Below the pieces are notes generated by a model, which searched no databases, was not told the origin of the DNA, and was given only the letters and a program-made list of their open reading frames with translations. Position numbers and translations under genes: made by a program. This document shows, one piece after another, positions 44,366-62,338 of a stretch of DNA of 64,000 bases; the first letter of the stretch is position 1; each line of letters starts with the position of its first letter. The stretch is taken from NCBI GenBank assembly GCA_963768645.1, contig CAVYIR010000011.1, positions 87,980 through 151,979 on the forward strand. The letters are read 5' to 3'. The DNA is from an uncultured Acidobacteriaceae bacterium. Lineage in GTDB: Bacteria; Acidobacteriota; Terriglobia; Terriglobales; Acidobacteriaceae.

Positions 44366-45568
44366 TTCAGACTCTCCGCATGCACCAGCGCACGCGAGCG
44401 CGCCGGCAGCCCAAGGATGCGAATGAAACCCTCCGCGTCCTTCTGCTGGTAGCCGGCTCCCATGGTGAAGCTGGCAATATCGGGCCGGTACAGCGACGTC
44501 GGCGATTTGCGGCCCGTGATGTCGATGTTGCCTTTGTAGAGGTCCAGTGTCACTTTGCCATTGACATCGTGCTGCGTACTTTCCACGAACGCCTGCAGCG
44601 ATTCGCGCAAGGGCGTGAACCACAGGCCGAAGTAGACGATCTCGGCATACTTCAGACCGATGTGCTGTTTGAAGTGCGCCAGGTCGCGGTCAAGGCACAA
44701 CGCCTCAAGCTCGCGATGGGCGGTGAGCAGCAGGGTGCCACCGGGTGTCTCATAACATCCGCGCGACTTTATTCCCACGAATCGGTTTTCGACGAGATCG
44801 ACGCGACCAATTGCATTTCGGGCGCCGATTTCGTTCAGTACTTCGACAATCGCCACTGGATCAAGAATGACGCCATTCACCGCCACTGGCGCGCCGTGTT
44901 GGAATTCGATCACAACCCTCTCGACCTTATCGGGCGCTTCCTGCGGCGAACTGTGTCCATGTCCATGTGGTCGCAAGTGGCGCGTTGTTCGGATCCTCCA
45001 GTTCGCCGCCTTCATGGCTGACATGCAGCAGGTTGCGGTCGCGGCTATGGATCTTCTCGCGACTTTGCGTCACAGAGATTCCATGCTGCTCCGCGTAGTC
45101 AAGACAATCCTCACGCGACTGGAGCGTCCACTCCCGCCACGGGGCAATCACTTTCAGTTCGGGCGCAAGCGCCTGGTACGCATGCTCGAAGCGCACCTGA
45201 TCATTGCCCTTTCCCGTGCAACCGTGCGCCACGGCAGTGGCCGCCTCCCGCAATGCAGCCTTGACTTGATACTTGGCGATGATCGGTCGCGCCAGCGACG
45301 TGCCGAGGAGGTACTTGTGCTCATATACCGCGCCCGCCTGGATCGCGGGAAAGACGTAGTCGAGGAGGAACTCCTGACGCAAGTCTTCGACGATCACCTT
45401 GCTTGCGCCGGTTGCGTATGCCTTCTCAACCACCGAGTCGAGGTCGTCGCCTTGGCCTACGTCGGCAACGTAGGCGATGACATCGCAGTCGTAATTCTCC
45501 TTCAGCCACGGAATAATGATAGAGGTATCGAGGCCTCCGGAATACGCCAGTACGACTTTCTCACGCAT
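44362..45568 (-). pseudogene. argG: argininosuccinate synthase with a single +1 frameshift (or an assembly indel)
   Basis: The N-terminal piece ([16 protein letters not shown]...[22 protein letters not shown]) and the C-terminal piece ([16 protein letters not shown]...GRVDLVENRFVGIKSRG...) are in different frames. Removing one T from coding-strand CAGTTCG (plus-strand AA at 44949-44950) restores ...TWTQSPQEAPD..., which is collinear with known ArgG. Confidence 0.85.
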
Positions 45569-46574
45569 ATGCACTCCTTGGAGGGAAGCGGTGAACGCCG
45601 CCTTCGAGCAATAAAACCATGATGGCTTTCTGAATGTGCAGGCGATTTTCCGCTTGATCGAACACCACGGAACGCGGCGAATCAATTACCGAGGCTGAAA
45701 CTTCATCTCCACGATGCGCCGGGAGGCAGTGCATGAATAGCGCATGCTTTGCGGCATAAGAGAAGAGCTTCTGGTTCACTTGGAAGGGGAGGAATATCTT
45801 GCGCCGCTCGGCGGCTTCGTCTTCCTGGCCCATGCTGGCCCACACGTCGGTATACACCGCGTCAGCCCCGGCGACTGCTTGAAGAGGATCGTTGACGACC
45901 AGCACTTGGCCGCCAGAGGCCGCCGCCAATTCTCGCGCCGCAGTCAGGACATCTTCGCTCGGCTCATATCCTTGAGGTGTTCCGACCGAGATGGTCGCTC
46001 CCAAGCTCGCTGCTGCCAGCATCAGCGAATGTGCGACATTGTTGCCATCGCCGAGAAAGGCGAGATGCACGTTGCGCAGGTCGCCGAAGTGTTCCTGTAA
46101 TGTCAACATGTCGGCCATGGCCTGGCACGGATGCTCCAATTCGCTGAGGGCATTGATCACCGGGATCGACGCGTGCGCGGCCATGGTCGTAACAGTCTCG
46201 TGCGCGAAGGTTCGCAGCACCACGCCGTCGACCCAGCGCTCCAGGTTATGGGCGACGTCGCTAAGGCTCTCGCGAGCACCCAGGCGCGATTGTGTCTGAT
46301 CGACAAAAAATGACACTCCACCAAGACTGTTGATGCCGGCCTCAAACGTCAATCGCGTGCGCAGCGAAGGTTTCTCGAAGAACAAGACGATCTGCTTGCC
46401 GACCAGAGTGCCGCGATAGTCCGCCGGACGCGCCTTCATCGCCGCTGCCAACTCCAGCGCACAGGCGAGTTCTTCCGGCGTGAAATCCTGAATCGAGATC
46501 AAGTCGCGTCCGGAAACGCTCCGCTGCGTGTAGGGATGGGGGCTTACGCCCGTGGGAACCGAAGTAGCAATCAT
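45561..46574 (-). CDS. argF: ornithine carbamoyltransferase
   Basis: Start trimmed to MIATSV (AAGGAG upstream). Motifs [17 protein letters not shown] and [11 protein letters not shown]. The stop overlaps the argG start by 8 nt. Confidence 0.9.
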
Positions 46575-46603
46575 GCTGTATCTCCTTGGAGCAAAGACGT
46601 ACG

Positions 46604-47383
46604 TCACGAGGCAATGACCTCGGTGCCGCATTCAATCGAATGGCTGAAGAAACCAGGCAATACCTCCGCCTGCTCAGCGGGCAGGATGCGAACCCGCGCT
46701 ACACCTCTCTTCAGCGCCTTGGTGCAAGCTTCCAGTTTGGGCAACATGCCGCCACTGACCGTCGCTTGTTGCACCATCGCAGCAATCGCTTTCACATCGA
46801 GCCAGCGAATGACAGCGCCTTCGGCATCCTTAACGCCGGCAACATCGGTGAGATAGATCAACGCATCCGCGCCGCAAGCCACCGCGCATGCCGACGCCAT
46901 GTGATCGGCATTGATGTTGTAGTACTCATCGTCAACACCAAGCGCCAAACTCGACACTACCGGAACAATGCCCGCGTTCCACAGCCGCTCGATCCACTGC
47001 GCGTTGACGGAGCAGATTTCGCCTACATAGCCGAGATCCGGTTGCTTCTTTCTCGCTGCGCGAAACATGTTCAAATCTCCGCCGCAGAGGCCCAGGGCGG
47101 GCTGTCCCGCCGCACCGATCGAGGCCACGAGTTGCTTATTGAGCTGTCCGGCAAGCACCATCACGGCCACGTCGCGGGTCTGCGCATCAGTGACGCGCAA
47201 ACCGTCGATGAAAGTGGTTTCGCAACCGAGCTGCTTCAAGGTACGGCTAAGCGCCGCTCCTCCCCCGTGAACGATCACCAGCCTGTGACCTTCACGCCAG
47301 AGGCTGGGGATTGTTTTGGCAAACTTCGTGACCAACTCTTTGTTGTCAAGAGCCGCGCCGCCAATCTTAATCACCAGTTTCAT
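46604..47383 (-). CDS. argB: acetylglutamate kinase
   Basis: Start trimmed to MKLVIKIGGAAL (ATGA overlap with the argC stop). VIVHGGG and the amino-acid-kinase fold pattern are present. Confidence 0.9.
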   Translation of the reverse strand: MKLVIKIGGAALDNKELVTKFAKTIPSLWREGHRLVIVHGGGAALSRTLKQLGCETTFIDGLRVTDAQTRDVAVMVLAGQLNKQLVASIGAAGQPALGLCGGDLNMFRAARKKQPDLGYVGEICSVNAQWIERLWNAGIVPVVSSLALGVDDEYYNINADHMASACAVACGADALIYLTDVAGVKDAEGAVIRWLDVKAIAAMVQQATVSGGMLPKLEACTKALKRGVARVRILPAEQAEVLPGFFSHSIECGTEVIAS

Positions 47384-48426
47384 TGCAATCCTGCTTTCTC
47401 GTCGAAACCGAACATGAGGTTCATGTTCTGCACGGCTTGGCCGGCAGCACCCTTCAACAGGTTGTCGATGCACGACACTACGACCGCCCGCTTACCATCG
47501 GGTGACAGCGAAAAGCCGATGTCACAGAAATTCGTGTTGCGAGAAAACTTGATCTGCGGCAACCGCACCGCTCCGAAGACACGCACCCAGGGCTTGCCAG
47601 CGTAGAACTCGCGCAGGCATTGCTCCAGTTCCTCTACGGATACAGACTTCGCCAACTTCACATAGATGGTGGAAAGGATGCCGCGCGGGATCGGCAGTAG
47701 ATGCGGCGTGAACTGCAACGATCCGCCCTCGAGCCCAAGCTGCTCCAGCATCTCGCCGGTGTGCCGGTGTCCGAAGACGTTGTAAGCGCTGAAGTCGCCA
47801 TCGACTTCCACGAAATGCGTCTGCGCCGAAGGCGTCTTGCCTGCTCCTGAAACCCCGGACTTCGAGTCGCATATGATGCCGTGCTCAACATCCACGTATC
47901 CGGCGCGAATCCACGGAGCCAGAGCCAGAATGATCGAAGTTGGATAGCATCCGGGATTCGCCAGCAAGGCGGCGTGTTTGATCGCCTCAGCGTGTAATTC
48001 GGGCAGCCCGTACACCGCAACTTCATCGAGGAGCGACGCGGCTTTTGCATTGGCGTCGCTAAACCCGTAAACGTCACGGTTCACCGATTGCTTCAAGCGC
48101 CAGGCCCCGCTCAGATCGATCACGCGCAGGCCACGGCCGATCGCCGCGGGGACCCATTCGCGCGAGAACTCGTGAGGCGTCGCCAGGACCACGACGTCTA
48201 CCCCGGCATCTTTCACCCGCTGCCACGAGAAAGCCTCCAGCGGAAATCCGCCGTTGCCGGCCAGTTGCGGATACGCTTCGCTCAGATCGCCGTATCCTCC
48301 ACTCTCTCCGTTGCGCTGGAAGAGCAGCGGCTTTTTCACTCCGGTGTGGCGCGCAAGCAAGCGCACAAGCTCCAGGCCGGAGTAACCGGTCGCGCCAAAC
48401 ACAGCGGGTTGTACCGTGGCATTCAT
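47380..48426 (-). CDS. argC: N-acetyl-gamma-glutamyl-phosphate reductase
   Basis: 348 aa with NAD-binding VFGATGYSG and the active-site region ANPGCYPTS. Confidence 0.95.
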   Translation of the reverse strand: MNATVQPAVFGATGYSGLELVRLLARHTGVKKPLLFQRNGESGGYGDLSEAYPQLAGNGGFPLEAFSWQRVKDAGVDVVVLATPHEFSREWVPAAIGRGLRVIDLSGAWRLKQSVNRDVYGFSDANAKAASLLDEVAVYGLPELHAEAIKHAALLANPGCYPTSIILALAPWIRAGYVDVEHGIICDSKSGVSGAGKTPSAQTHFVEVDGDFSAYNVFGHRHTGEMLEQLGLEGGSLQFTPHLLPIPRGILSTIYVKLAKSVSVEELEQCLREFYAGKPWVRVFGAVRLPQIKFSRNTNFCDIGFSLSPDGKRAVVVSCIDNLLKGAAGQAVQNMNLMFGFDEKAGLQ

Positions 48427-48939: not shown

Positions 48940-49495
48940 AGAGCGGAGGATTGTCAAGAAATTGCTGGGGCGCTGCCGAAACATATCCGGCAGCAGGATC
49001 AGGAATTATGTGCTTTCGAAGTTCGATAAAGTGCCGGCAGCCTCCCTGCGGCAGACTCCCGGAGATTGTAAGGCGCATGCTGCGTGGTTTCGTCTGCGAC
49101 ACGCATTGTGTCGCCAGCACGTGCTCGACTTCGGAGGTCCCAATGCCAAATGCCAGCGCGCCAAGGGCCCCGTGGGTGCTGGTGTAGCTATCGCCGCAGA
49201 CCACGGTCATGCCCGGCTGCGTCAGCCCCAACTCCGGCCCAATGACATGCACGATGCCCTGCCGGCCCGATCCGACGTCGAACAACGGAATGCCTGCGCT
49301 TTCGCAATTGCGCCGAAGGGTCGAGATTTGTTGGGCCGCGATCTGGTCCTTGATGTGAAAGCGTTCGTCGGAAGTGGTGGGAATGTTGTGATCGCGGCGG
49401 GACCGTGCTGTCGCATGCCGGCCAGGCGTTCCTCAAGACGTGCAAGGCGCTGGCACAGGCTCCCGCGGGGCGATACATGTGGCAGGTGGAGCGGT
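48923..49495 (-). pseudogene. leuC: fragment of 3-isopropylmalate dehydratase large subunit / aconitase-family gene
   Basis: Reads ...[96 protein letters not shown]..., then degenerates. A frame change lies upstream of DHNIPTT. The conserved CGDSHT reads CGDSYT. Both the N- and C-terminal parts of the gene are missing. Confidence 0.65.
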
Positions 49496-49558
49496 AAGGC
49501 GGCAGGAGGGTGAGGAAGGCACTAAGCCGGTCCCGGCCTGGGCGCGAATGCGGCCCGG

Positions 49559-51103
49559 CTAGTGAGATGTCCAGCTCGACTTGAGCTGCCAGATTCTTAG
49601 GGACACAACTTTGCCGCTACTTCCTCGTGAGTACAGTTCAATGGCGCTGCTGCCGGGCGGAGGATAGATGCGGTCGGTCATGACCTCTTCGCCATCGTTG
49701 GCAAAGACCTCAACGCTGGAGCGGTCCACGAAAATGTGAAGCTTGATCCGTTTCGTGCTTTGCAGAGTAGTCGTGTAGCGTCCCGGGAAGTCCTTGCTGA
49801 AAGAGACATCACCGGACTGCGTGCGATCCACAAAAAGGGTGTTTGTGGAGGGAATCACGCCAATGACGGTCTCGGCGTTATCGCTTTTACGCAGGCGAAA
49901 TCCCATTTCCTCCGCCTTTTGCGTTTCAAACTCAGCCTCAATCTCGTAGGTCTCCCCGTTCACGCCAGCTTCTGCGATTTTGCGGTTTGCATCCAGGACC
50001 GAAGCGCTTTGAATTTGGAATGGCTGGCCTCGCAGGCTCTGCAACTCACGAACCGGTGTCTGCACGAGGATGGTCCCCGCCGCAGTTCGCCTGAGCGTCA
50101 GGGTTCGCGGAATCGACTGAGCTCCGCGCCAGAGCACAGTAGGCTCATCTTTAGCGTACAGCCAGTTGCTGGTCCAACCGATCCAGATCCTGCGGCCGTC
50201 GCTCGATGGCATGTCGTTGAACGAGTTGGTGGCGTAGAAGTCTTTGCCATAGTCTGCCCACAGCTTTGTCTGAGGCGGAGTCTCATCGGTGAACTGCTTT
50301 CCGTCGAAGTTACCGACCAGATATCGCACGCCGGTGCCGCCTGCCGGCGCCCCCGGATTGCGATTGACGATCAGCACCCATTTCTTGTCGTTAGTACCCT
50401 CGATTGGAAGCTCAAGTAGATCGGGACACTCCCATTGACCGGCGTCGTCACCAGCGGGACCGAACTCGCTGCGCATGGTCCACTTTTTTAGATCGGAGGA
50501 ATCGAAAAACACCGCCTTGCGCTGATCCGCCAGTACAGCTACCATCACCCACTTTTTCTGCGTTTCGTACCAGAACACCTTGGGATCGCGGAAGTCAGGC
50601 GCATCGAGATCGACGACGGGATTGCCGGCGTAGTTTGTCCATGTGCGGCCGCGATCGTTGCTGAAGGCAATGTGCTGCTTTTGCCGATCTTTGTAGGCCG
50701 CCGCGTAAATGGCAATAAGACACGAGTGGTCCTGTGGGTCGGGATTCTTACACAGGCCGCTGGAGTTGTTCCAGTCCACGACCGCACTGCCGGAGTACGC
50801 CATATACTTCGGATCCTCAGGAATGGCGACCGGCAAGTTGCGCCAGTGCACCATGTCGGTGCTGATGGCGTGTCCCCAACTCATGTGTCCCCAGACGTTG
50901 CCCCCGGGATTGTACTGATAGAAGAGGTGGTATTCACCTTTGTAGAAGACCATCCCGTTGGGATCGTTCATGAAATTGTGCGGGGGGGTGAAGTGATACT
51001 GCGGGCGCCAAGGCTGATTGTAACTATCCTGTGCCAGCAGTTGGGTTGCATGACCCAGAAAAATAGCGATCGCGAATAGACCAGCGCAAGCTTGTCTCTT
51101 CAT
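49559..51103 (-). CDS. secreted glycoside hydrolase family 32 (beta-fructofuranosidase/levanase-type)
   Basis: 514 aa with a signal peptide. GH32 motifs NFMNDPNGMVFYKGEYHLFYQYNP, FRDPKVFW and WECPDL. Confidence 0.9.
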   Translation of the reverse strand: MKRQACAGLFAIAIFLGHATQLLAQDSYNQPWRPQYHFTPPHNFMNDPNGMVFYKGEYHLFYQYNPGGNVWGHMSWGHAISTDMVHWRNLPVAIPEDPKYMAYSGSAVVDWNNSSGLCKNPDPQDHSCLIAIYAAAYKDRQKQHIAFSNDRGRTWTNYAGNPVVDLDAPDFRDPKVFWYETQKKWVMVAVLADQRKAVFFDSSDLKKWTMRSEFGPAGDDAGQWECPDLLELPIEGTNDKKWVLIVNRNPGAPAGGTGVRYLVGNFDGKQFTDETPPQTKLWADYGKDFYATNSFNDMPSSDGRRIWIGWTSNWLYAKDEPTVLWRGAQSIPRTLTLRRTAAGTILVQTPVRELQSLRGQPFQIQSASVLDANRKIAEAGVNGETYEIEAEFETQKAEEMGFRLRKSDNAETVIGVIPSTNTLFVDRTQSGDVSFSKDFPGRYTTTLQSTKRIKLHIFVDRSSVEVFANDGEEVMTDRIYPPPGSSAIELYSRGSSGKVVSLRIWQLKSSWTSH

Positions 51104-51251
51104 GGTTGCTGCCGCCGCGACATGGTACCTCGCGTTGGACCGGATGCTGCGGACACAGTAACCCCCTCATCGGAGGATAACGGATTACCAAGCCTACGCC
51201 CTTCGAGTTTGATCTCCGAAATTTTCCTAGTGGTCAGCCTATGATGCATGA

Positions 51252-51407
51252 TCACATCAGTGGTTGGAACTTGGCCGCACGATTCGCGAGCATCTGGTCG
51301 ACCCGCAGCTTCAGGTTCTTGAGCACATCATGCGTCAATTTATCGCCGAAGCAGGCAACGGCAATGGTCGCGAAACAGAGAACGAGAAATCGCCTTAGCG
51401 CCACCAT
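51252..51407 (-). CDS. small putative lipoprotein (51 aa)
   Basis: Hand-translated as MVALRRFLVLCFATIAVACFGDKLTHDVLKNLKLRVDQMLANRAAKFQPLM*. Signal-like N-terminus with a lipobox-like IAVAC. Too short for the ORF track and no homology recognised. Confidence 0.3.
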   Translation of the reverse strand: MVALRRFLVLCFATIAVACFGDKLTHDVLKNLKLRVDQMLANRAAKFQPLM

Positions 51408-51532
51408 CCCATGCTGAGATTTTTATTTTGGGACCGACGGCCGCTACAGGCTGTTAACGACAGCATCAAACGCCATGGTGCGAGTTACTCACGGGGGAGG
51501 AATCATCGACGGATAAGTTTGCATTGCCAGAA

Positions 51533-51724
51533 TCAGCGGCGGTGCCTCAGCAACAAACATCCTCCGATAAAGGAGAAGATGACCACCACTATGGCAAGGG
51601 TGAACAGTGCCCAGAAAGCCGGGTCGCCGCGGTCGGCATTCATGAGGTAATGGTGCATCAAGTGTCCGAAGGCCAGGGTCGTAAACAGTACGGCCACCCC
51701 GCACACGATGTTCAGAATTCGCAT
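51533..51724 (-). CDS. small two-TM membrane protein (63 aa)
   Basis: ORF MRILNIVCGVAVLFTTLAFGHL...FWALFTLAIVVVIFSFIGGCLLL has two clear hydrophobic helices. No homology recognised. Confidence 0.35.
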   Translation of the reverse strand: MRILNIVCGVAVLFTTLAFGHLMHHYLMNADRGDPAFWALFTLAIVVVIFSFIGGCLLLRHRR

Positions 51725-51868
51725 GACGTTTATTATTCCAGCTTATTGCGATGGAGAGGAGGGGGCAGATTCTTCGGGGCCAAAGCGCCTCGGAATAACC
51801 AGTACTCAGAAGCTTGCGAGGGGGCGGCTGAAAGCCGCACCCCTTCGAACAGTGCCCCCAATGCAACA

Positions 51869-53026
51869 TCAGTGCTTGTAGCCCGCACCGCGCAACGCTG
51901 CGGCGAAACAATCCGCAAAATCCCGAACGTGCTCCGTCGTTGCCAGTGGACCCATCACTCCGATGCGGAAGATCTTTCCGGCGAGCGGACCAAAGCCTCC
52001 AGCGATTTCAATGCCGTGCTCTTTGAGCAACGTGGATCGCACCTTGGCTTCATCCACACCTTGCGGCACCTTCGGTGTGTTCAAGTTCCAAATGCGATGC
52101 TCGGGAGCAACCAGCATTTCCAGTCCCATCGCCTCCAACGTCGTGACGAACTCCAGGTGCGCCTGGTGATGGCGGTCCCAGCGATTGTGCAAGCCTTCTT
52201 CTTCGATGAGCGTGAGGCCTTCGTGCAGGGCGTAAAACATGGTCGCCGATGCGGTGTGATGATAACGATGCGAGATGGTCAAATAGTCGGCGATCAGCTT
52301 CAGGTCGAAATACCAGGAGCGGTTCGGGGTTTCGCGTTTATGCAGCCACTCGGCCGCGCGCGGTGAGACCGTGATGGGCGACAGTCCGGGAGGGCAGCTC
52401 AAGCCTTTCTGCGTGCAACTGTACGCGATGTCAATGCCGGTCTTGTCCACTTCGACGGGCATTGCGCCAAGCGAAGTCACGCAGTCGGCAATGACCAGAG
52501 CGCCGACTTCATGCGCGGCCTTGCAGATGGCGTCGCCACGTTGAAAGGCTCCTGCGGAAGTCTCGGCTTGCACGTACATCACGACTTTGGGTTTCTCAAG
52601 GCGGATAAAGTCGGCAGCTTCCTTGTCATCGAAGACTTCGCCCCAGGGTTTTTCGAATCGCACGAGATCAGCGCCCTGGCGGCGCGCCATTTCTGACATG
52701 CGGTCGCAGAAGAAACCGTTGGCGAACGACACCACCTTCATCCCCGGCAAAACAAAGTTGGAGATGGCGGTTTCCATGCCACCACTGCCAGTGGCGGAGA
52801 TGACGAAGGTCAAGTCGTTCTTAGTTCCGAACACCGTGCGGAGAAGCCGTTGAATGTTGGAGGAGATCTCGAAGAAATAGGCATCGAGATGGCCGACGAC
52901 AGGCTGAGCCATTGCCTGGTAAACCCGGGGGTGGACCTGACTTGGGCCGGGGCCAAACAACAGCCGCATGGGAGGATGAATAGAGATTTCTTCGGCTAGC
53001 GCAGTTCTTTCAGCAGAGCTTATCAT
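51869..53026 (-). CDS. class-V aminotransferase (alanine-glyoxylate / serine-pyruvate type)
   Basis: Start trimmed to MISSAERT (TAGGAGG upstream). PLP-lysine region YSCTQKGLSCPPG, with the overall AGXT-like pattern (LLFGPGPSQVHPRV). Confidence 0.85.
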   Translation of the reverse strand: MISSAERTALAEEISIHPPMRLLFGPGPSQVHPRVYQAMAQPVVGHLDAYFFEISSNIQRLLRTVFGTKNDLTFVISATGSGGMETAISNFVLPGMKVVSFANGFFCDRMSEMARRQGADLVRFEKPWGEVFDDKEAADFIRLEKPKVVMYVQAETSAGAFQRGDAICKAAHEVGALVIADCVTSLGAMPVEVDKTGIDIAYSCTQKGLSCPPGLSPITVSPRAAEWLHKRETPNRSWYFDLKLIADYLTISHRYHHTASATMFYALHEGLTLIEEEGLHNRWDRHHQAHLEFVTTLEAMGLEMLVAPEHRIWNLNTPKVPQGVDEAKVRSTLLKEHGIEIAGGFGPLAGKIFRIGVMGPLATTEHVRDFADCFAAALRGAGYKH

Positions 53027-53466
53027 TGCGTGCCTCCTATAACAACCATCCAGTATAAAACTATTGCGTCTGGCGCTGACGTAATTATTCCTCGACCACA
53101 CTTCAGTAGTTGATGATCGGGAGAAACGAAGAAACGCCCGATTCCGATTAACCTTTTGGATAGTCGGCCCTCACCACTCGGATAGTCCAACCTGCCGCCT
53201 GTACAGCGAGGCGCTTTGCCCAGATCAGCCGCCGTAACCGCTATGTGTTGGCAATGTACGAATTTGCGTGCTGCTTGAGGGCAAGCCTTGTTTGCGTTCC
53301 GCTTTGGTGCGTCACGTGCAGGTTACATACGCAAGCGAACCAAGACCAGCGCACCACGACAGCAAGTGGCCTACGTGGGCGCAATTCTCAAAGTCGCGGA
53401 CGGACGGTATTCAGCAACGCGTGGAGAAGAAGGCGCACCTGAATCTGGCGTCAGAGGAGTTGAGCC

Positions 53467-54180
53467 ATGAAGTTAGCAAAGCGAAGCTGCACGATCTTGA
53501 TCGGCCTCGGTGTTTTCGCTATGCCGATGCTAGGTCAGGGTGATCGCGTCGTCGTCGCTTGGCACTCAGGAAGTGAGATCAGGGTTTCGATTGCTCAAAC
53601 GACGCCGCTGGGCACGGTGCTCGACGAAGTTTGTCGCGAGATGAACGCCCAATGCCTGGGAACCCAGCAGACGATGGCTGCCATGGTTCCCGCCCAGGAA
53701 GTTCGCGGCGACTGGCGGCAAGTGATTTCGATTTTGCTGGAAGGCGCCGGATTCAACTACGTTGCCGGCACACCATCGGGGTCTTCTCTTGGGAGGCTGG
53801 AGATTGTTGGTACGTCGCAGGGAAGGGGCGAGCAGCCAGAAGTCCGGTCTGCTGACGCTGCCAAGAAGCTCAACCAGACCGGCGTTGCGGGGGAGCGGTC
53901 ACCCGATGGGCCTGCCTTATCGGGTTTGCCAAATGCAGGAGTGCAGCCGTCAATGGAGGCTAGTTCCGAACCTGAAACAGCTTCCGTGGATGCTGCTCCG
54001 TTATCGGCAAGCATGCCGGCTCCCCCAACTTCTGGCGCAGAGGGACCAGGCCAAGCGCGACGAGCCAGCGGCGTCGAACAGACGGCCATGGGCGGCCAGC
54101 CTGACAGCCTGCTGTTTCCTGATGGCTACGGAAACTCTATTCCTGCTTCTCACTCTCAGGACAAGCCGGATTACCCATGA
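53467..54180 (+). CDS. secreted protein, STN-like N-terminal region plus low-complexity Pro/Ser/Ala tail
   Basis: 237 aa with a signal peptide (ILIGLGVFAMPMLGQG). TPLGTVLDEVCREMNAQCLG...VISILLEGAGFNYV is reminiscent of an STN domain. The tail is compositionally biased. Confidence 0.4.
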   Translation: MKLAKRSCTILIGLGVFAMPMLGQGDRVVVAWHSGSEIRVSIAQTTPLGTVLDEVCREMNAQCLGTQQTMAAMVPAQEVRGDWRQVISILLEGAGFNYVAGTPSGSSLGRLEIVGTSQGRGEQPEVRSADAAKKLNQTGVAGERSPDGPALSGLPNAGVQPSMEASSEPETASVDAAPLSASMPAPPTSGAEGPGQARRASGVEQTAMGGQPDSLLFPDGYGNSIPASHSQDKPDYP

Positions 54181-54274
54181 CCCAGGGGTCTACATATGCG
54201 ATTACGCCGTCTTTAGTTTCAATGCGGAATGTGGCATGTCCGAGCCACGAAATGCGGTTTCCTTGCAGGTTCAT
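54137..54274 (-). pseudogene. N-terminal stub of an MBL-fold (UPF0173/UlaG-like) metal-dependent hydrolase
   Basis: GAGGTGA ribosome-binding site, then MNLQGNRISWLGHATFRIETKDGVIAYVDPWVMGNPACPESEKQE*. The xxWLGHAxFxIExxxxxIxxDPWxxGNPxCP pattern is typical, but the HxHxDH metal motif and the rest of the gene are absent. Overlaps the 3' end of the ORF at 53467-54180. Confidence 0.5.
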
Positions 54275-54315
54275 GGTCACCTCGATTTAGGAGCCGAAAG
54301 CGATGCGACGAGGCG

Positions 54316-55875
54316 CTAGTAGGTGTCCCCTTCACGCCAGTCGCGATAGCCACCGGCCAGCGAGAACACGTTTCGAAAACCCATCTTCTTCAAATTGAAG
54401 GCGGCGAGCGCTGAACGGCTGCCTCCACCACAATATAAAACCAGCTTACGGTCTTTATCGGTCGTAATCTTGTCGATGTTTACCTCCAGAATGCCGCGTG
54501 GCAAGCTGATAGCCCCAGGGATAATTCCCTTTGCCTGTTCGTCGCGCTCTCGCACGTCCACCAGCGCAAAGTCTTCACCTGATTCCTGCATGCGACGGAG
54601 GTCGTCGGGACCGATTTCTCTGATCTGCGATTTTGCTTCGTCCACCAATTGCTTGAACTCGAGTAACGGCATGTCCGTCTCTCCCCTTTCCGGCCTCCGC
54701 GAATTAGGCCAACATTCTCCGTTCTTGAGTTCGGATCTGAGGCGTGCGGCCGCGTCGAAATCCTGCTGCGCACCCTCGATGTCGCCCTTAGCTTCGCGCG
54801 CGACGCCCCGGTTGTTGAGGGCATCAGCGTAGTCGGGCTTGAGGCGAATGGCTTCGCTGTAATCCTGCAATGCGCCCTCCAGGTCGCCCTTGGCCATCCG
54901 CGCAAGGCCCCGGTTGTGGAAGGCAACCGCATAGTCCGGTTTCAGGCGGATGGCCTCGTTGTAATCCTGCAACGCGCCCTCCAGGTCGCCCTTGGCCCTC
55001 CGCGCAAGGCCCCGGTTGTGGAAGGCATCAGCATAGTCGGGCTTGAGGCGGATGGCTTCGTTGTAATCCTGCAACGTGCCCCCGAGGTCGCCTGTGGCAT
55101 AGCGCGCGGCGCCCCTGTTGTTGAAGGCGAGGGCATAGTCCGACTGGAGGCGAATAGCTTCGCTGTAATCCTGCAGCGCGCCCTCCAGATCGCCTTTGAC
55201 ATAGCGCGCAATACCCCGGTTGTTGAAGGCAACCGCATAGTCCGGCTTCAGGCGGATGGCCTCGCTACTCAAGCGCGCCTTTTCATCAGGATCGGCAGCG
55301 TTGAGCCCACGCTCAAACCATTCCTGTGCCGTCAGCTCTTTTTCCGTGACCGCGGGAGCTTCGACGGCCGCGACCTGCTCGTCCTTTGCGGCCTGCTGTG
55401 CGAGGAGCGAGGCCGGGTGCAGAACCGCATACAGCGCCACATTCAGGTACCGGTCGCGAAGGCGCTGCATGGCCTCCTCAAAGTACTCTACCGGGACGCG
55501 CAGTGCGTTGTAATGCTTGAGTGATGTCAGGTTGCCTGTGAGCCCGCTGGCAATTCCTGGCGCGCCGAAGTCGAACCCTTCCAACATCAGCGGCACGATG
55601 TTGCGCTGGGTTGCCAGAGCCGTCTCGATTTCGCGGCGCAGCCAGTCTTCTGGATCACCACATCGCTCCAGCGCGGACGGGGTGAGCAAGACAATGAAAT
55701 GCGCGCGTGCCTTGATGTTGCTGATTATGACGCGCTCGAAGTCACCACTGGCGATACCGCTAAAATCGAAGAACACGTCATAGCCGTGCTGGGTCAGGTT
55801 CTGGAAGATCGCCAGCGCCCAGGGAGCGTTGGTACGGCGGTAACTGAGAAAAACAGTTTTCTCGATGCGTTCCAT
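54316..55875 (-). CDS. TIR domain - 5x TPR - rhodanese domain fusion protein
   Basis: 519 aa. The TIR_2-like N-terminus reads VFLSYRRTNAPWALAIFQNLTQHGYDVFFDFSGIASGDFERVIISNIKARAHFIVLLTPSALERCGDPEDWLRREIETAL. It is followed by five 34-aa TPR units (PDYAxAFxNRGxARxxKGDLEGALQDYxEAIRLK). The C-terminal rhodanese domain has DFALVDVRERDEQAKGIIPGAISLPRG and the active-site loop LYCGGGSRS. Confidence 0.8.
   Translation of the reverse strand: MERIEKTVFLSYRRTNAPWALAIFQNLTQHGYDVFFDFSGIASGDFERVIISNIKARAHFIVLLTPSALERCGDPEDWLRREIETALATQRNIVPLMLEGFDFGAPGIASGLTGNLTSLKHYNALRVPVEYFEEAMQRLRDRYLNVALYAVLHPASLLAQQAAKDEQVAAVEAPAVTEKELTAQEWFERGLNAADPDEKARLSSEAIRLKPDYAVAFNNRGIARYVKGDLEGALQDYSEAIRLQSDYALAFNNRGAARYATGDLGGTLQDYNEAIRLKPDYADAFHNRGLARRAKGDLEGALQDYNEAIRLKPDYAVAFHNRGLARMAKGDLEGALQDYSEAIRLKPDYADALNNRGVAREAKGDIEGAQQDFDAAARLRSELKNGECWPNSRRPERGETDMPLLEFKQLVDEAKSQIREIGPDDLRRMQESGEDFALVDVRERDEQAKGIIPGAISLPRGILEVNIDKITTDKDRKLVLYCGGGSRSALAAFNLKKMGFRNVFSLAGGYRDWREGDTY
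54736..55245. repeat. tandem 102-bp repeats (x5) encoding the TPR units
   Basis: Successive 102-bp units are near-identical at the DNA level, e.g. gcgcaaggccccggttgtggaaggca...cggatggc.tcgttgtaatcctgcaacg.gcc recurs in register. Confidence 0.8.
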
Positions 55876-55953
55876 ATCTCGCGGCGGCGCCTCGTGTGTT
55901 CAGGACAGAACTGAAAGATAGAAAGATAGCAGATGTATGGCAAGATATAGCGC

Positions 55954-58259
55954 GTGTCTTGCCCAGTCCACCTTCGGAATGCTGTTATCTTGGCGATCGT
56001 GCTTGTCTTGGTTCAGTCAATCGTTTGGGCCGCCCCGCTACAGGAATTGCGCGGCGTGGTGAAAGACCGCAGCGGAGCGGTGATTGCCAAAGCGCAAGTT
56101 CTGCTGCGCGCCGACGCGCAGGAGATTAGCCGGACGACCCAAGCTGATGGGAGTTTCGTATTCACGGGAATAACTGCTACCAGTGGAAGTCTCGTGGTCA
56201 GTGCGTCCGGTTTCGCGACCAGCACAACCACATGGCAAGCGGGGACAAACCAGCTCTCCATCACCCTGGTTCCGGCGGCGGTGCAACAAAGTCTCGACGT
56301 GACGGCGACTCGCACTTCAATCCTCCCGACCGGCGTGGACGACCTTGAGGCGCAACCCGACGCCGTTACCGTCAGCGCCACACAATTGCAGCAATGGGGC
56401 GCACTGGCCACCGACGACAAATTGCGCAACGTCGTCGGCTTTTCGCTGTTGCGGCGATCGGGCAGCCAGACGGCCAATCCCACATCGCAAGGTGTGTCGT
56501 TGCGCGGACTCGGCGCGAGTGGAGCGAGCCGCGCGTTGGTCCTGGCGGATGGCATACCGCTCAACGATCCCTTTGGCGGCTGGATTTATTGGGCGCGCCT
56601 GCCGCAAACGTCCCTGGACGAAGTGCAGCTTATTCCGGGCGGTGTCTCGGCGCTGTATGGAAATGATGCGCTGGGGGGAGTGATCAATCTGGAGACGCGT
56701 CATGCGGTGCAGACAGACGCTCTCGTGCAAGGGTCGTATGGAAACGAGAACTCGCCGTTCGGCTCGGGCTGGGGCGCGATGCGCTTCGGTCAGTGGGCGG
56801 TAGTGGCGAGCGGAGAAGGATTCCGCACCGACGGATACACTGCCGTTCCGGATGATGTGCGAGGCTCGGTGGACACGCCGGTCGCATCGCAGTATGGCAG
56901 TGGAACCTTGCGCGTGGAACGCATGTTCGGCAATCGCGGACGCGTCTTTCTGACTGGTTCGCTCTACGGCGAAGACCGGCAGAATGGCACGCCGCTCCAA
57001 ATCAACGACACGACCATTCGCCAATTGGCATTTGGTACAGACTACGATAGTTCCGCGGCCGGGTTGTTCACGCTTCGCTTGTACGGTGGAACGGAGAACT
57101 ATCATCAGACGTTCTCCTCGATTGCGGCCAACCGCAATAGCGAATCGCTGACCAACATTCAGTACGTTCCTTCGCAGCAAATGGGATTGCTGGCGCAATG
57201 GTCGAAGCAGATCGCCAGCCGCCTGACGTTGCTGGCGGGACTCGACGGACTGGACGTGCAGGGATTCAGCAACGAGACTACGCTATTCGCAGGGCAAGCC
57301 AACGGCGCACTTGTCGAATGGCGGCACGCAGCAATCGCTGGGTGTGTTTGCCGAAGGCATCGTGCAGATCACGCCGAAGTGGTCGGTGACATTCTCCGGA
57401 CGCGAAGATCTGTGGAGCAACTTCGACGCCAGCTCGTCGCGGATTCCGGTCAAGGGTAAACCAATATTCATTGCCTACCCTGACCGCGGCCAGAATGCCT
57501 TCAGCCCGCGACTGACCACGTCTTATCACGCCGGCGAACATACCGTGCTTTATGCGTCGGCCTATCGCTCGTTTCGTGCGCCCACGCTGAACGAACTCTA
57601 TCGCACCTTCCGGGTTGGCAACGTGCAGACTCTTTCTAACGCCTATCTTGCGCGCCGAACACTTTACCGGCGGAGAAGGTGGAGTGCGCGTCACTACTCT
57701 GCACGACCGCATGACGATTTACGGTGTCGGATTCTGGGGCTTTGTCACCGATCCAGTTTCCAACGTGACCCTCAGCACGACTCCGCAACTCATCGTTCGC
57801 ATGCGCGAGAACCTTGGGCGCATTCAAGCGCCCGGACTTCAGGCTGGCATCAACTACACCATCACCAACCGTATCTGGTTTAGCTGCGCGTACCAGTTCA
57901 TTAATTCCACCGTATCGTCGTTTTCCGCGAACCCGGCTTTGGTAGGGAACCAGGTTCCGCTGGTGCCGAAGAACGAGTTCGTCTTCCAGGGAACGTGGGC
58001 CGCGCCGCAGAAGATTTTCGTTGCCGTCCAGGGACGCACCGCCAGCAACGAATTCGATGATGATCAGAACCTGTTGCCACTCGGCGCCTACTTCGTGCTG
58101 AGCGCGACTGTATCGCGTCCACTGCCAAAAGGCTTCGACGTATTCTTCCAAGGCGAGAACCTTACCAACAATGTGTACGACATCGGACGCACCCCGGTAG
58201 CAACTCTGGGCCAGCCGATCCTGGCTCGCATTGGTATGCGCTGGCAGAGCAGGAAGTGA
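55954..58259 (+). pseudogene. TonB-dependent receptor with CarboxypepD_reg-like N-domain, two frameshifts
   Basis: Pieces 55954-57459, 57311-57883 and 57615-58259 read through as one receptor: signal, VVKDRSGAVIAKAQVLL...DGSFVFTGI, plug (VSLRGLGASGASRALVLADGIPLNDPFGG), barrel, and C-terminal ...ILARIGMRWQSRK*. Frame switches lie near 57295-57310 and near 57640-57650. Confidence 0.8.
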
Positions 58260-59160: not shown

Positions 59161-60197
59161 ATGGCGAACATCAAACAGCCCCGAAGTCTGCAAGAAGCGA
59201 TAGCCTATTTCGCTGACCCGGAGCGTGCTTTTGTTTACGCTGTTAACCTTCGCTGGCCAGATCGCAAGATCACCTGTCCACGTTGGGGACATGACCAGCA
59301 CTCGTTTCTCCGCACCCGTTTGATGTGGTGGTGCAAGGGATGCAAGAAGCAATTCAGCGTTAAGGTAGGAACCATCTTCGAGGATTCCCCGCTCGGCATG
59401 GATAAATGGATGACCGCATTCTGGATGGTGGTCAACTGCAAGAACGGAGTTAGTAGCGCTGAAATGGCGCGCACTCTCAAGATCACCCAGAAGTCCGCGT
59501 GGTTCATGCTTCACCGAGTCCGCGAAGTCATGCAAGAACAATTCCGTGACAAAGCTCGGCAGTGCTGGCGGAGCCGTCGAAAGCGACGAGACTTTCATCG
59601 GGCCGAATCCCCGCAAGATGCACAAAGATCGCAGCGTCAAGCTGGCCGCTATTCGCAGTCAACACAGGCTTGGAGACATGTATCTCGGCAAGACTGCCGT
59701 CATGGGATTGCTGGACCGGGACGCACGCGAGATTCGCTGTAAGGTCATCCCCAACATTCGCCGTGAAACCTTGCAGAACGAAATCCTGAACAACGTCGAA
59801 TACGGCGGCAGGCTCTACACGGACGACGCTAGTGGATACATGGGCATCGCAAAGACCTTCGTCCACGAAGTCGTCAACCATGCTAGAGGAATACGTTCGC
59901 GGGCAGGTTCACACAAACGGACTCGAAAACTTCTGGAGTCTGTTCAAGCGCAACCTGCGCGGCACTTACGTATCTGTCGAACCATTCCATCTAGATCGTT
60001 ACCTCGACGAGCAAGTATTCCGTTTCAACAATCGCGGCGGCAAGAAGCCGGAAGAACGCGTCACTGACTCTCAGCGCTTCGTGAAAGCCATGTCGCAGGC
60101 ATCCGGCAAGCGCCTCACTTACGCCCAACTGACGGGCAAGGGAGTTGACTCGCTCCACCATCCGGCGGCAGCACAGGGGCAAGAGGAACCTTTCTAG
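59161..60197 (+). pseudogene. IS1595-family (ISXO2-like) transposase, two frameshifts
   Basis: Pieces 59161-59742, 59546-60067 and 59832-60197 read through: Zn-ribbon (CPRWGHDQHSF...WWCKGCKKQFS), HTH, VESDETFIG, LYTDDASGY, and EYVRGQVHTNGLENFWSLFKR. Frame switches lie near 59545-59555 and near 59880-59890. Confidence 0.8.
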
Positions 60198-61176: not shown

Positions 61177-62338
61177 CTGCCCTGTCACAAGGCACACAAT
61201 AGCACACATTGTGAGCCAAGTATATATTTGCCCTTACATGTAATATATTCCATAATAAGGACTTGTGGTTGATCTTGGACAAACTTGAGTGCCCACATCC
61301 TTGTCGCCCTCTGTTGGCGACAGGGTGGGTACTAACCCCTGACCACTAACCCCTCTCCCCTGTCCTCTGCCAACTGCTCCTCCTAGCCCCAAATCCCTGA
61401 CCCCTAGCCCCTGCCTTTTCGCAGACACAAATAGGCAGGAGCGTCGGGCGCGGCGGTTCCTGCCCTACACCGCGAGTATGGTTCTGCCCACCAACGCGGT
61501 CAAGTTACGAAAGTAGTAATCGCCGCTCCTATCTTGCTGCCCCTCCCGGAATGGGAATGACGCTGAACTAGGGCTGAATGCTGACGGCTGAGTGCTGGGT
61601 AGAGCGGGGAATAAATCCGAGTCCCTTCAGGGATGACAGAGGTAGTTATCTGTGTTGTAGTTGACATCCAGCAGGAGTGGGCCGGTAAATGTCTGCCCAG
61701 TTCATCCATAGGTAGGCATCCGAAAACGATTGCCGCTCAATAGAAAATAGCTTATGCGCCTACACCACTTCAGCGCCATTGACTTTGTTTCGGACTCATC
61801 GTAATGTCGCTCATCTTTTTTGTTTCCCGTAATTGGGACATAAGTTTCGGAGGCACCCGATAGTCATTATTCAGGGAGCAGCCGCTTCGTCTACAACCGC
61901 CTGCCCCCTTTCTTAGCCAGTTCGGCCTCATAGCTCGACACCAGGACAGTTGTACTGAGACTAGGTTGGGTGAATTCCCGCCGCTGTTTGGCACGACCCT
62001 TCCGGTTCTGGCAAATTCTCTTAGTTTCAGATTGGAACGACCGAGATCAAAAGTTGATAGTTCCCATATTGGAGCTTGACTTGTCAATATTTTGAGCCAA
62101 TGTTGTTGCCGTAGGGTCGGGAGTGCGTCCCGTGCCTCACTCACAAGGAGGTGTGAGGACAGTTGCACCGAGCAGTAGATTTGGTTCCAGTTTTTCAAAC
62201 TAGGGTCCATGAAGTCCTTCTTTTCGAGTGGCATTGATTATCGGAGGTCCACCGCCGCTCGATTACGACTAAGCGTACGGCACGTTCCTGAAGAGGAGTG
62301 CAGCAGTTATTGCAGAGTTCTGCGGCAAGGGAGGACAT

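What the first reader, a model, noticed from the sequence alone, without database searches (positions are those of the whole stretch)
54316..55875. One ORF fuses a TIR domain, five near-identical TPR units and a rhodanese domain
Bacterial TIR domains are established NAD-cleaving or signal-generating effectors in anti-phage systems such as Thoeris and some CBASS and Pycsar effectors. Here a TIR_2-like N-terminus, including the W..E glutamate context (DWLRREIE), is joined to a TPR array and then to a rhodanese module. The rhodanese keeps its catalytic cysteine loop (LYCGGGSRS). I know of no described system that pairs TIR with a sulfurtransferase or phosphatase-type rhodanese.

Two observations complicate the picture. 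First, the 20-residue linker (LKNGECWPNSRRPERGETD) looks like translated spacer DNA. Second, an internal GGGGAGAG ribosome-binding site plus ATG sits at 54672 (MPLLEFKQ...). The fusion may therefore be a recent stop-codon loss joining a TIR-TPR gene to a stand-alone rhodanese gene, and the rhodanese could also be made separately.

The neighbours are decayed: an MBL-hydrolase stub downstream and a frameshifted TonB-dependent receptor upstream. That is consistent with an accessory or defence-type locus.
Basis: partly seen in the sequence, partly recalled or inferred. Interest (0 to 1): 0.75.

Follow-up and report, generated by a model that had tools for sequence, protein, structure and literature searches.

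The report
Accidental TIR-TPR and rhodanese read-through fusion
The three-domain ORF is real in this sequence, but it looks like a one-off accident: a displaced fragment of a housekeeping rhodanese operon landed just behind an ordinary SARM1-like TIR-TPR gene that has no stop codon, so it is not a conserved new defence system.

Summary
The 519-aa ORF (54316-55875, minus strand) exists. It contains TIR_2, five TPR units and a rhodanese domain, all above Pfam gathering cut-offs. It is a chimera of two unrelated genes.

- **TIR-TPR part (residues 1-385).** This is a typical member of a very large Acidobacteriota TIR-TPR family. The closest homologues are 60-79% identical, and the best one is exactly 385 aa. 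Its TIR is closest to the SARM1 NADase TIR, with the catalytic Glu conserved.
- **Rhodanese part (residues 402-519).** This is the complete, up to 93-94% identical copy of a stand-alone 118-aa rhodanese. In 59 of 59 related loci that gene heads a conserved rhodanese-MBL hydrolase(-methyltransferase) cluster, and a TIR gene is never within 6 kb.
- **The join.** The window holds only a 546-bp block of that operon: leader, rhodanese and 44 codons of the MBL gene. It sits about 30 nt after the TIR-TPR gene. The homologous TGA stop reads GGA here, and the 16-residue linker is translated intergenic DNA.
- **The site.** The 1.87-kb block lies in a variable spot between an aminotransferase and a TonB-dependent receptor. 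That spot is empty or differently filled in relatives whose aminotransferase is 97-98% identical.
- **Recurrence.** The fusion recurs nowhere.

A new TIR-rhodanese system is not. Interest is low.

The parts
55456..55875 (-). TIR domain (residues 1-140), SARM1-like, with SYRR (11-14), BB-loop G44/F46/E47, W78 and the putative catalytic E82
   Evidence: Pfam TIR_2 scores 54.7 bits. phmmer against PDB gives the SARM1 TIR at E=5e-19 over residues 7-139, with E82 aligned to the E of SARM1 DWVHKEIVTAL. These residues are conserved in 115-120 of 120 homologues.
55351..55455 (-). Conserved helical extension of the TIR module (residues 141-175)
   Evidence: It is conserved across family representatives together with the TIR (consensus ...LNVPLDAVLHPAS...). 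phmmer matches span residues 1-175.
54721..55335 (-). TPR solenoid (residues about 181-385): a capping helix pair plus five 34-aa units
   Evidence: Pfam TPR_11, TPR_1 and TPR_2 each match five stretches. Tandem Repeats Finder reports a 102-nt period, 5.0 copies, at 54759-55266. AlphaFold2 pLDDT is 90-98.
54718..54720 (-). Codon G386 (GGA) at the position of the TGA stop of the closest TIR-TPR homologues
   Evidence: DNA alignment A2 shows L007 and L008 reading AAG AAA TGA where the window reads AAG AAC GGA. The closest homologue, P0084, is exactly 385 aa.
54673..54720 (-). 16-residue linker (G386-D401): translated intergenic DNA. It comprises about 10 nt of possible TIR-TPR 3' flank, a junction near 54700, and about 15-30 nt of rhodanese 5' leader.
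   Evidence: Alignment A2. blastn homology to canonical rhodanese loci begins at 54687. The linker is predicted disordered, with pLDDT below 50 for residues 386-406.
54679..54686 (-). GGGGAGAG Shine-Dalgarno-like site, 6 nt upstream of ATG 54672-54670; inherited native RBS of the rhodanese gene
   Evidence: Relatives carry GGAGAG or GGAGGG at the same place before their ATG.
54316..54672 (-). Complete stand-alone-type rhodanese (118 codons plus stop; residues 402-519 of the fusion) with the active-site loop C482-GGGSR
   Evidence: It is up to 93% identical to more than 100 protein clusters, nearly all of 118 aa, that carry only PF00581, and 94% identical to L011. Synonymous changes far exceed non-synonymous ones against relatives. 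It has only two private residues.
54137..54274 (-). MBL-fold hydrolase stub: codons 1-44 of a 236-aa gene, then E and a stop
   Evidence: tblastn matches MBL residues 1-44 only, at 93% identity. Homologous to the 236-aa gene in 59 of 59 related loci; most span the full length, some are split or matched only in part.
54142..54155 (.). Junction 1: the crossover between the L072-type 295-aa gene and the antisense MBL gene, with imperfect microhomology CCyGyTTCTCA
   Evidence: Alignment A4. blastn end-points are 54152 for L072 and 54142 for the rhodanese loci.
53467..54180 (+). ORF237: a 3'-truncated copy of a secreted 295-aa protein of unknown function. Its last 8 codons are read from the antisense MBL fragment.
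   Evidence: BLASTP aligns residues 1-230 to 1-230 of the L072 295-aa protein at 72% identity, E=1e-110. It has no Pfam match.
55876..55953 (-). TIR-TPR 5' flank (homologous to other TIR-TPR loci up to 55910), a promoter-like site at 55943-55915, and the right-hand border of the insert
   Evidence: blastn to L007 reaches 55910. Alignment A5.
55954..58259 (+). Flanking TonB-dependent receptor. It is syntenic with L071 and L072 and carries two window-private +1 insertions (57282 and about 57641-57646).
   Evidence: Pfam finds CarboxypepD_reg, Plug and the beta-barrel spread over three frames. Indels were mapped against L072 (intact, 805 aa) and L071.
51869..53101 (-). Flanking class-V aminotransferase, the left anchor of the syntenic frame
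   Evidence: Pfam Aminotran_5. It is 98% and 97% identical to P0241 and P0242, whose loci show the empty or alternative site.

Best explanation
The ORF is a chimeric read-through product with no dedicated function as a unit.

**How it arose.** A typical 385-codon TIR-TPR gene sits in a variable spot between an aminotransferase and a TonB-receptor gene. Illegitimate, microhomology-type recombination joined it to a promoter-less 546-bp fragment of the lineage's conserved rhodanese-MBL hydrolase-methyltransferase operon. That fragment carries the leader, the whole 118-codon rhodanese and 44 codons of the MBL gene. The position that is a TGA stop in the nearest TIR-TPR homologues is GGA here. The 48-nt spacer happens to be open and in frame, so translation from the TIR-TPR start runs through 16 codons of intergenic DNA into the rhodanese.

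**Shown.** The mosaic structure, the break-points, the uniqueness of the arrangement, and the intactness of both halves.

**Inferred.**
- The TIR-TPR part works like its many relatives: a SARM1-like NAD+-cleaving TIR whose activity is gated by a C-terminal repeat sensor, probably in conflict or defence.
- The rhodanese is a passenger. It is co-transcribed, and it may also be made separately from its retained RBS and ATG.
- The event is recent.
For: 1. **The TIR-TPR family never carries a rhodanese.** More than 7,800 hits were found. The best 120 are all TIR_2 plus TPR, 382-746 aa, and cover only about 73-79% of the query in nearly all cases. phmmer with the rhodanese against 270 family proteins gives no hit.
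2. **The rhodanese is a stand-alone gene elsewhere.** Residues 402-519 match a 118-aa protein at up to 93-94% identity, starting at the same Met. All 59 related loci have rhodanese followed by the MBL gene, usually with the methyltransferase, and none has a TIR within 6 kb.
3. **Only a fragment of that operon is present.** The window has one 546-bp block of the locus, 54687-54142. The MBL gene stops at codon 44, and no other gene of the locus lies in the 64 kb.
4. **The stop codon is replaced.** Homologues end ...RS(A/E)PKK followed by TGA. The window has GGA at that codon and one extra base just after it.
5. **An empty site exists.** L071 (aminotransferase 98% identical) has the aminotransferase 207 nt from the TonB receptor. 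L072 (97%) has two other genes there. The window is collinear with L072 up to 54152 and again from 56022.
6. **Junction 1 looks like a recombination scar.** It shows microhomology and truncates both abutting genes.
7. **Both halves are intact.** The catalytic residues are conserved and there are only 1-2 private substitutions. The rhodanese differs from relatives at about 40 synonymous against 7-12 non-synonymous codons, similar to orthologue controls.
8. **The linker is predicted disordered**.
9. **The TIR is SARM1-like.** SARM1 is the best PDB match at E=5e-19, with the catalytic Glu aligned.
Against: - No reads or second assembly of this genome are available, so neither the junctions nor the GGA codon and the frame can be verified independently.
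- The sequence has frameshifts in argG and in the TonB receptor, so base-level errors are possible.
- Both domains are perfectly preserved and the join is in frame, which is also what a selected fusion would look like.
- The TIR module is naturally combined with many different C-terminal regions: only 23 of 129 representatives have TPR. The family therefore does tolerate or explore new C-termini.
- It is unknown whether a second, canonical rhodanese operon exists elsewhere in this genome.
Confidence: 0.8

Rival explanations
1. Assembly or consensus artefact. The adjacency, or only the missing stop and the reading frame, is an error in a long-read metagenome assembly. In the organism, the TIR-TPR gene ends at codon 385 and the rhodanese is a separate gene.
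For: - argG, a core gene, is split over two frames, and the TonB receptor over three.
- The TonB frameshifts are window-private single-base insertions. The close relative L071 has different private indels, and L072 is intact.
- Relatives come from long-read MAG projects in which split genes are visible, for example purC in L001.
- The frame through the 48-nt linker depends on short A/G runs, and it has one extra A relative to homologues.
Against: - The flanks on both sides are syntenic with two relatives, so the 1.87-kb block is embedded in the locus and is not a contig-scale chimera.
- Junction 1 has microhomology and truncates two genes, as real illegitimate recombination does.
- TGA to GGA is a substitution, which is not the typical long-read error.
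- Only about 3 frameshifts were seen in roughly 25 kb of checked coding sequence. An indel inside a given 48-nt stretch is therefore unlikely a priori, of the order of 1% (inference).
Confidence: 0.12
2. A functional new three-domain effector. The rhodanese has been recruited as an output or regulatory module of a TIR-TPR immune protein. It might act in persulfide or redox control of the NADase, or in phosphatase-like processing of an ADPR-derived signal.
For: - The join is in frame, with intact TIR catalytic residues and an intact rhodanese Cys loop.
- The TIR module is combined with many different C-termini in nature.
- Rhodanese-phosphatase-superfamily domains have been predicted in ADP-ribose conflict systems (PMC9503650).
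- No TIR plus rhodanese system was found in the literature search.
Against: - It is a singleton. It is absent from 59 rhodanese loci, from 270 TIR-family proteins and from two metagenome scans.
- The rhodanese is 90-94% identical to a housekeeping orthologue, and it arrived with a useless 44-codon stub of its operon neighbour.
- The linker is untranslated leader DNA that still contains the RBS.
- No conserved partner gene is present.
Confidence: 0.04
3. The whole block is dead debris. The TIR-TPR gene itself is no longer functional, and the locus is a graveyard of fragments in a decaying region.
For: The neighbours are truncated (MBL stub, ORF237) or frameshifted (TonB receptor), and an IS1595-type transposase remnant lies 3.3 kb away.
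Against: - The TIR-TPR reading frame is intact over 385 codons, with one private residue in the first 200 and all family-invariant residues present.
- A promoter-like site lies upstream (weak evidence).
- The rhodanese shows a purifying-selection pattern.
Confidence: 0.04

Closest known systems
SARM1 TIR domain and the mainly bacterial TIR clade in which it nests
   Same: SARM1 is the best solved-structure match: E=5e-19 over the whole domain (residues 7-139). The SYRR motif, the BB-loop G-x-F-E and the W-x3-E catalytic Glu all align. In both, the enzyme domain is joined to an alpha-solenoid (ARM in SARM1, TPR here). That the SARM1 TIR sits within a bacterial clade is published (PMC13142454, citing Zhang et al. 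2011).
   Different: The domain order is reversed and there are no SAM domains. The repeats are TPR, not ARM. NADase activity and the regulation are untested here.
Bacterial TIR-TPR proteins (TIR_2 plus TPR architecture)
   Same: Residues 1-385 form a full-length, 60-79% identical member of this family. TIR fused to TPR is a recognised architecture, proposed to tune NADase activity through a sensor domain (PMC8494770).
   Different: This copy lacks the stop codon and carries a 134-residue C-terminal extension (linker plus rhodanese) seen in no other member. I found no experimental study of this Acidobacteriota subfamily.
BcTir/BcTpr two-gene anti-phage system of Bacillus cereus (bioRxiv 10.1101/2023.05.26.542521)
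   Same: A TIR combined with a TPR protein gives phage defence, which supports the general logic of TPR as sensor or regulator.
   Different: There the TIR and the TPR are separate genes with a different 'core Tpr' architecture. No homology to that system was tested here.
Single-domain rhodaneses (GlpE/PspE type) and the 118-aa Terriglobales orthologue heading the rhodanese-MBL-methyltransferase cluster
   Same: Residues 402-519 are 90-94% identical over the full length, with the same start, RBS and Cys loop. There are weak NCBIfam matches to GlpE, PspE and the rhodanese domain of MoeB.
   Different: Here the gene has lost its own upstream region and its operon partners, and it is read through from the upstream gene.
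Thoeris ThsB and other TIR defence effectors (TIR-SAVED, TIR-APAZ, and similar)
   Same: They share the TIR fold. There are weak PADLOC and NCBIfam TIR-only matches: ThsB1 at 6e-5 and ThcB4 at 41.6 bits against a cut-off of 220.
   Different: No ThsA-type partner, cyclase, SAVED domain or Argonaute is nearby. All scores are far below family cut-offs.

Membership tests
TIR_2 / SARM1-like NADase TIR clade | Sequence match to the TIR_2 profile above the curated cut-off | tested here: met
   54.7 bits against 28.
TIR_2 / SARM1-like NADase TIR clade | Catalytic glutamate in the W-x3-E context, aligned with the catalytic Glu of a proven NADase TIR | tested here: met
   E82 aligns with the Glu of SARM1 DWVHKEIVTAL. 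It is invariant in 120 of 120 homologues. That this SARM1 Glu is E642 is from my own knowledge.
TIR_2 / SARM1-like NADase TIR clade | NAD+ cleavage activity | not testable with these tools
   Needs an enzyme assay.
Acidobacteriota TIR-TPR family | N-terminal TIR module (about 175 aa), then tandem 34-aa TPR units, ending ...RL(R/G)x(x)PKK then stop | tested here: inconclusive
   The TIR module and the TPR array are met. The C-terminal stop is not met: GGA stands in place of TGA.
Stand-alone 118-aa rhodanese orthogroup of Terriglobales | Full-length identity, own start codon and RBS, active-site Cys loop | tested here: met
   90-94% identity over residues 1-118. RBS and ATG are conserved. The CGGGSR loop is present.
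Stand-alone 118-aa rhodanese orthogroup of Terriglobales | Genomic context: followed by the intact 236-aa MBL hydrolase, usually with the methyltransferase | tested here: not met
   The MBL gene is cut at codon 44 and no methyltransferase is present in the window. All 59 relatives have an MBL gene downstream.
Thoeris (ThsB) | TIR protein encoded next to a ThsA-type effector (SIR2, Macro, SLOG or TM) | tested here: not met
   The neighbours are a TonB receptor, an aminotransferase, a GH32 enzyme and ORFs with no Pfam match. ThcB4 scores 41.6 bits against a cut-off of 220.
CBASS/Pycsar TIR effectors | A nucleotide-sensing domain (SAVED or cNMP-binding) in the protein, and a cyclase gene nearby | tested here: not met
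   The PADLOC SAVED-TIR hit covers only TIR residues 7-69. Pfam finds no cyclase or SAVED domain.
A conserved TIR-TPR-rhodanese fusion or gene pair (a 'system') | Recurrence of the fusion or adjacency in independent genomes | tested here: not met
   Absent from 59 rhodanese loci and from 270 TIR-family proteins. No metagenome contig matches an exact junction pattern or a degenerate adjacency pattern. The exact protein is not on record.

The most novel reading that the evidence does not exclude
The fusion is real and is a nascent functional innovation. A family of SARM1-like TIR effectors that habitually swaps C-terminal sensor regions has just captured a sulfurtransferase or phosphatase-type rhodanese, coupling NAD+ cleavage to thiol or persulfide chemistry or to processing of an ADPR-derived signal.
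Probability: 0.04. Interest if true: 0.6.

Novelty: new member of a known kind. Interest (0 to 1): 0.2.

Why it matters
As a candidate defence system it matters little. The domain combination that attracted attention is a singleton recombination scar, and neither linkage nor selection supports it.

Its modest value lies elsewhere:
- It is a clean worked example of how gene fusions are born. A promoter-less operon fragment, a lost stop codon, and an intergenic leader with its RBS together become a linker.
- It is a caution for domain-architecture mining in error-prone MAGs.
- It points to a very large, experimentally untouched family of SARM1-like TIR proteins in soil Acidobacteriota. The family has variable C-termini and partly defence-like neighbourhoods, and it may merit study in its own right.

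Tried and rejected
- **Exact look-up of the 519-aa protein.** It is not on record.
- **Exact 24-mer across the junction in metagenome contigs.** No hits.
- **Degenerate pattern for any TIR-TPR end followed 66-96 nt later by the rhodanese start.** No hits.
- **Genome-collection scan with the rhodanese.** The source genome is not among the species representatives (best 94%). I therefore could not test whether a second, canonical rhodanese operon exists in the same genome.
- **AlphaFold2 model of the full protein.** It is confident only for the TPR part. The TIR scores pLDDT 38-65 and the rhodanese 40-75 with the shallow alignment. I ran no fold search because it would be meaningless. The TIR fold rests on Pfam and the sequence match to SARM1.
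- **Transposon-type insertion.** I found no target-site duplication or terminal inverted repeats around the block, so I rejected this in favour of illegitimate recombination.
- **Phage origin of the TIR module.** There is no relative in viral contigs.
- **Homopolymer explanation for the frameshifts.** The two TonB insertions are not in homopolymers, so the 'typical nanopore homopolymer error' argument is weaker than I first assumed.
- **Thoeris, CBASS and Pycsar membership.** Considered and rejected; see the membership tests.
Full report
**1. The observation**

The ORF 54316-55875 (minus strand, ATG start, 519 aa) is present. Pfam places the following, all above gathering cut-offs:
- TIR_2 on residues 8-107 (54.7 bits; cut-off 28);
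- five TPR units (TPR_11 at 141.9 bits);
- Rhodanese on residues 423-515 (71.5 bits; cut-off 22.2).

The TPR array has a 102-nt period repeated 5.0 times with 81% matches. The units are 56-91% identical to each other at the amino-acid level, so they are similar rather than near-identical. PADLOC and NCBIfam give only weak, TIR-only or rhodanese-only matches far below family cut-offs.

**2. Two unrelated genes**

I searched with the whole protein and found more than 7,800 relatives.
- The best 120 are all TIR_2 plus TPR proteins of 382-746 aa and 44-79% identical (mostly 60-79%).
- Nearly all cover only about 73-79% of the query. None lists Rhodanese.
- They end ...AARLRS(A/E)PKK then stop, or ...RLGYKP then stop. 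The window continues ...AARLRSELKNGECW....

I then searched with residues 401-519, a 119-aa query that runs from just before the internal Met.
- This found more than 100 clusters of a stand-alone rhodanese, nearly all exactly 118 aa. They are up to 93% identical, begin at the same Met and carry only PF00581.
- The best genome match is 94%.

**3. The rhodanese belongs to a conserved operon with no TIR**

- In six contigs the context is purC-cvpA-HTH_8-rhodanese-MBL hydrolase (236 aa)-O-methyltransferase-PIG-L.
- A genome-collection scan added 53 Acidobacteriota loci (Acidobacteriaceae and Ca. Korobacteraceae MAGs).
- In 59 of 59 loci the rhodanese is followed by the MBL gene and, in nearly all, by the methyltransferase.
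- In none is a TIR within 6 kb.

**4. What the window contains**

- DNA homology to that operon is one sharply bounded 546-bp block, 54687-54142, at 83-86% identity.
- The block comprises about 15 nt of leader (perhaps up to 30 nt) with the GGAGAG-type RBS, the whole rhodanese, the 41-nt spacer, and MBL codons 1-44 followed by Glu and a stop.
- No other gene of the operon lies anywhere in the 64 kb.

**5. The fusion point**

- Aligned with the two closest TIR-TPR loci, the homologues read AAG AAA TGA G-ATGT, while the window reads AAG AAC GGA GAATGT.
- The ancestral stop position is therefore codon G386. The closest homologue, P0084, is exactly 385 aa.
- The next 16 codons (GECWPNSRRPERGETD) are non-coding DNA: at most 10 nt of TIR-TPR 3' flank, a join near 54700, then the rhodanese leader.
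- In the other two frames the read-through would stop after 4 codons, or run out of frame into the rhodanese.
- AlphaFold2 predicts the linker (residues 386-406) to be disordered and the TPR to be a confident solenoid.
- No promoter-like or terminator-like site lies between the two parts.

**6. The empty site**

The flanking aminotransferase has 98% and 97% identical homologues on long contigs.
- In L071 the aminotransferase lies 207 nt from the TonB receptor.
- In L072 two unknown genes (295 aa and 273 aa) lie between them.
- The window is collinear with L072 from 49391 to 54152 (92% identity) and again from 56022. It is collinear with L071 up to 53091 and from 56009.

Window 54152-56009 (1.87 kb: MBL stub, rhodanese and TIR-TPR) therefore replaces 1.3 kb of L072-type sequence in a variable hotspot with syntenic flanks.

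ORF237 (53467-54180) is residues 1-230 of the L072 295-aa protein plus 8 codons read from the antisense MBL fragment. At the crossover both parental sequences share an imperfect CCyGyTTCTCA motif. No target-site duplication or terminal inverted repeats flank the block. This is the signature of illegitimate recombination. The syntenic flanks argue against a contig-scale chimera.

**7. How reliable the sequence is**

- argG is split over two frames and the TonB receptor over three.
- The two TonB frameshifts are window-private single-base insertions (57282 and about 57641-57646), and they are not in homopolymers.
- L071 carries different private indels in the same gene, and L072 is intact.
- The GH32 and aminotransferase genes are clean.
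- Relatives come largely from long-read MAG projects in which split genes are visible.

Base-level indel errors are therefore plausible in the window. The frame through a 48-nt linker cannot be taken as certain. However, the missing stop is a substitution, and the a-priori chance of an indel in that particular stretch is small. I put about 12% on an artefact.

**8. State of the two halves**

*TIR module*
- There is one private residue in the first 200.
- F9, S11, Y12, R13, R14, D37, W78 and E82 are conserved in 115-120 of 120 homologues.

*Rhodanese*
- It has two private residues: P405L at an invariant Pro, and Q431E.
- It differs from relatives at about 40 synonymous against 7-12 non-synonymous codons, similar to orthologue-orthologue controls.

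Both halves are intact, which fits a recent event.

**9. What the TIR-TPR part is**

- The best solved relative of the TIR is the SARM1 NADase TIR, at E=5e-19 over residues 7-139.
- SYRR, the BB-loop G-x-F-E and the catalytic Glu all align.
- SARM1's TIR is known to nest in a bacterial clade (PMC13142454).
- TIR fused to TPR is a recognised architecture, proposed to gate NADase activity (PMC8494770).

The 175-aa TIR module defines a large family: 771 clusters at 50% identity with E<=1e-30, and 3,836 with E<=1e-10. Of 129 representatives, all have TIR_2, only 23 have TPR and 4 have Sel1. The rest have C-termini without a Pfam match. The pattern is a constant effector with a variable sensor.

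Homologues are single genes in varied contexts:
- a tandem pair beside a DDE transposase (L073);
- next to HNH and EVE genes (L074);
- next to an AriA/OLD-like ATPase (L008; PADLOC 1e-22);
- near Mu Gp27 and integrase fragments (L009).

The module is absent from viral contigs. A defence or conflict role is plausible but untested. No conserved partner gene exists.

**10. Comparison and verdict**

The literature search found no TIR plus rhodanese system. Rhodanese-phosphatase domains have been predicted in ADP-ribose conflict systems (PMC9503650). The rhodanese here, however, is the housekeeping orthologue, and it arrived with a stub of its operon neighbour.

The fusion is a singleton. It is absent from 59 rhodanese loci and 270 TIR-family proteins, two metagenome scans found nothing, and the exact protein is not on record.

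**Best explanation (0.8).** An accidental read-through chimera, created by recent illegitimate recombination and the absence of the stop codon. The TIR-TPR part is a new member of a known family and the rhodanese is a passenger.

**Rivals.** Assembly artefact (0.12), a functional new effector (0.04), and wholly dead debris (0.04).

**Interest.** 0.2.

Noticed in passing
window 44365-45685 (minus strand): argG (argininosuccinate synthase) is split over two reading frames. The shift appears to be an extra T near 44950 (...ACACAG T TCGCCGCAGGAAGCGCCCGATAAG). The gene lies inside an otherwise intact arginine-biosynthesis cluster (argF at 45564-46631, argC-like at 47383-48426). This is probably a consensus error and a warning about base-level accuracy of the window.
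   Followed up: partly
window 55954-58259 (plus strand): The TonB-dependent receptor is broken by two window-private +1 insertions (57282 and about 57641-57646). The 98%-related genome L071 has different private indels in the same gene, and L072 has it intact (805 aa).
   Followed up: yes
window 53101-55954; L071 9793-10001; L072 7746-10001: The gap between the aminotransferase and the TonB receptor is a variable hotspot with three different fillings in three close relatives: nothing; two unknown genes of 295 and 273 aa; or a truncated 295-aa gene plus the TIR-TPR/rhodanese block.
   Followed up: yes
window 59161-60067 (plus strand): There is an IS1595-type transposase remnant (Zn_ribbon_IS1595 in ORF 59161-59739, with a second overlapping ORF at 59546-60067 in another frame). 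It lies 3.3 kb from the TIR-TPR gene. The region 58.3-64 kb has almost no Pfam matches.
   Followed up: no
window 61233-62014; L071 5778-6505 and 15358-15685: This stretch of the window matches two separate places in L071 (85% and 76% identity). That suggests a dispersed repeat or mobile sequence shared by these genomes.
   Followed up: no
L073 6291-7604 and 8001-9212: Two TIR-TPR paralogues (437 and 403 aa) lie in tandem, 2.3 kb from a DDE transposase. Family members differ widely in length (382-746 aa).
   Followed up: no
L007 572-1729, L008 1077-2336, L009 1388-2539: All three of the closest TIR-TPR homologues sit 0.5-1.4 kb from a contig end. DNA similarity between TIR-TPR loci is confined to the gene plus about 35 nt upstream, with little beyond the stop codon. 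The genes behave like small cassettes, or break assemblies.
   Followed up: no
window 54661-54663 (codon 405 of the fusion, residue 4 of the rhodanese): Leu stands where all 120 homologues have Pro (MPLP to MPLL). This is the only private change at an invariant rhodanese position.
   Followed up: partly
window 21307-24134 (plus strand): A DUF4331 protein is followed, with a 130-nt overlap in another frame, by a TPR/ARM-repeat protein. This may be another frameshift or a genuine overlapping gene pair.
   Followed up: no
protein family level (P0361-P0489): The SARM1-like 175-aa TIR module is joined to TPR in only 23 of 129 cluster representatives. Most have C-terminal regions with no Pfam match, which amounts to a large set of uncharacterised putative sensor domains.
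   Followed up: partly
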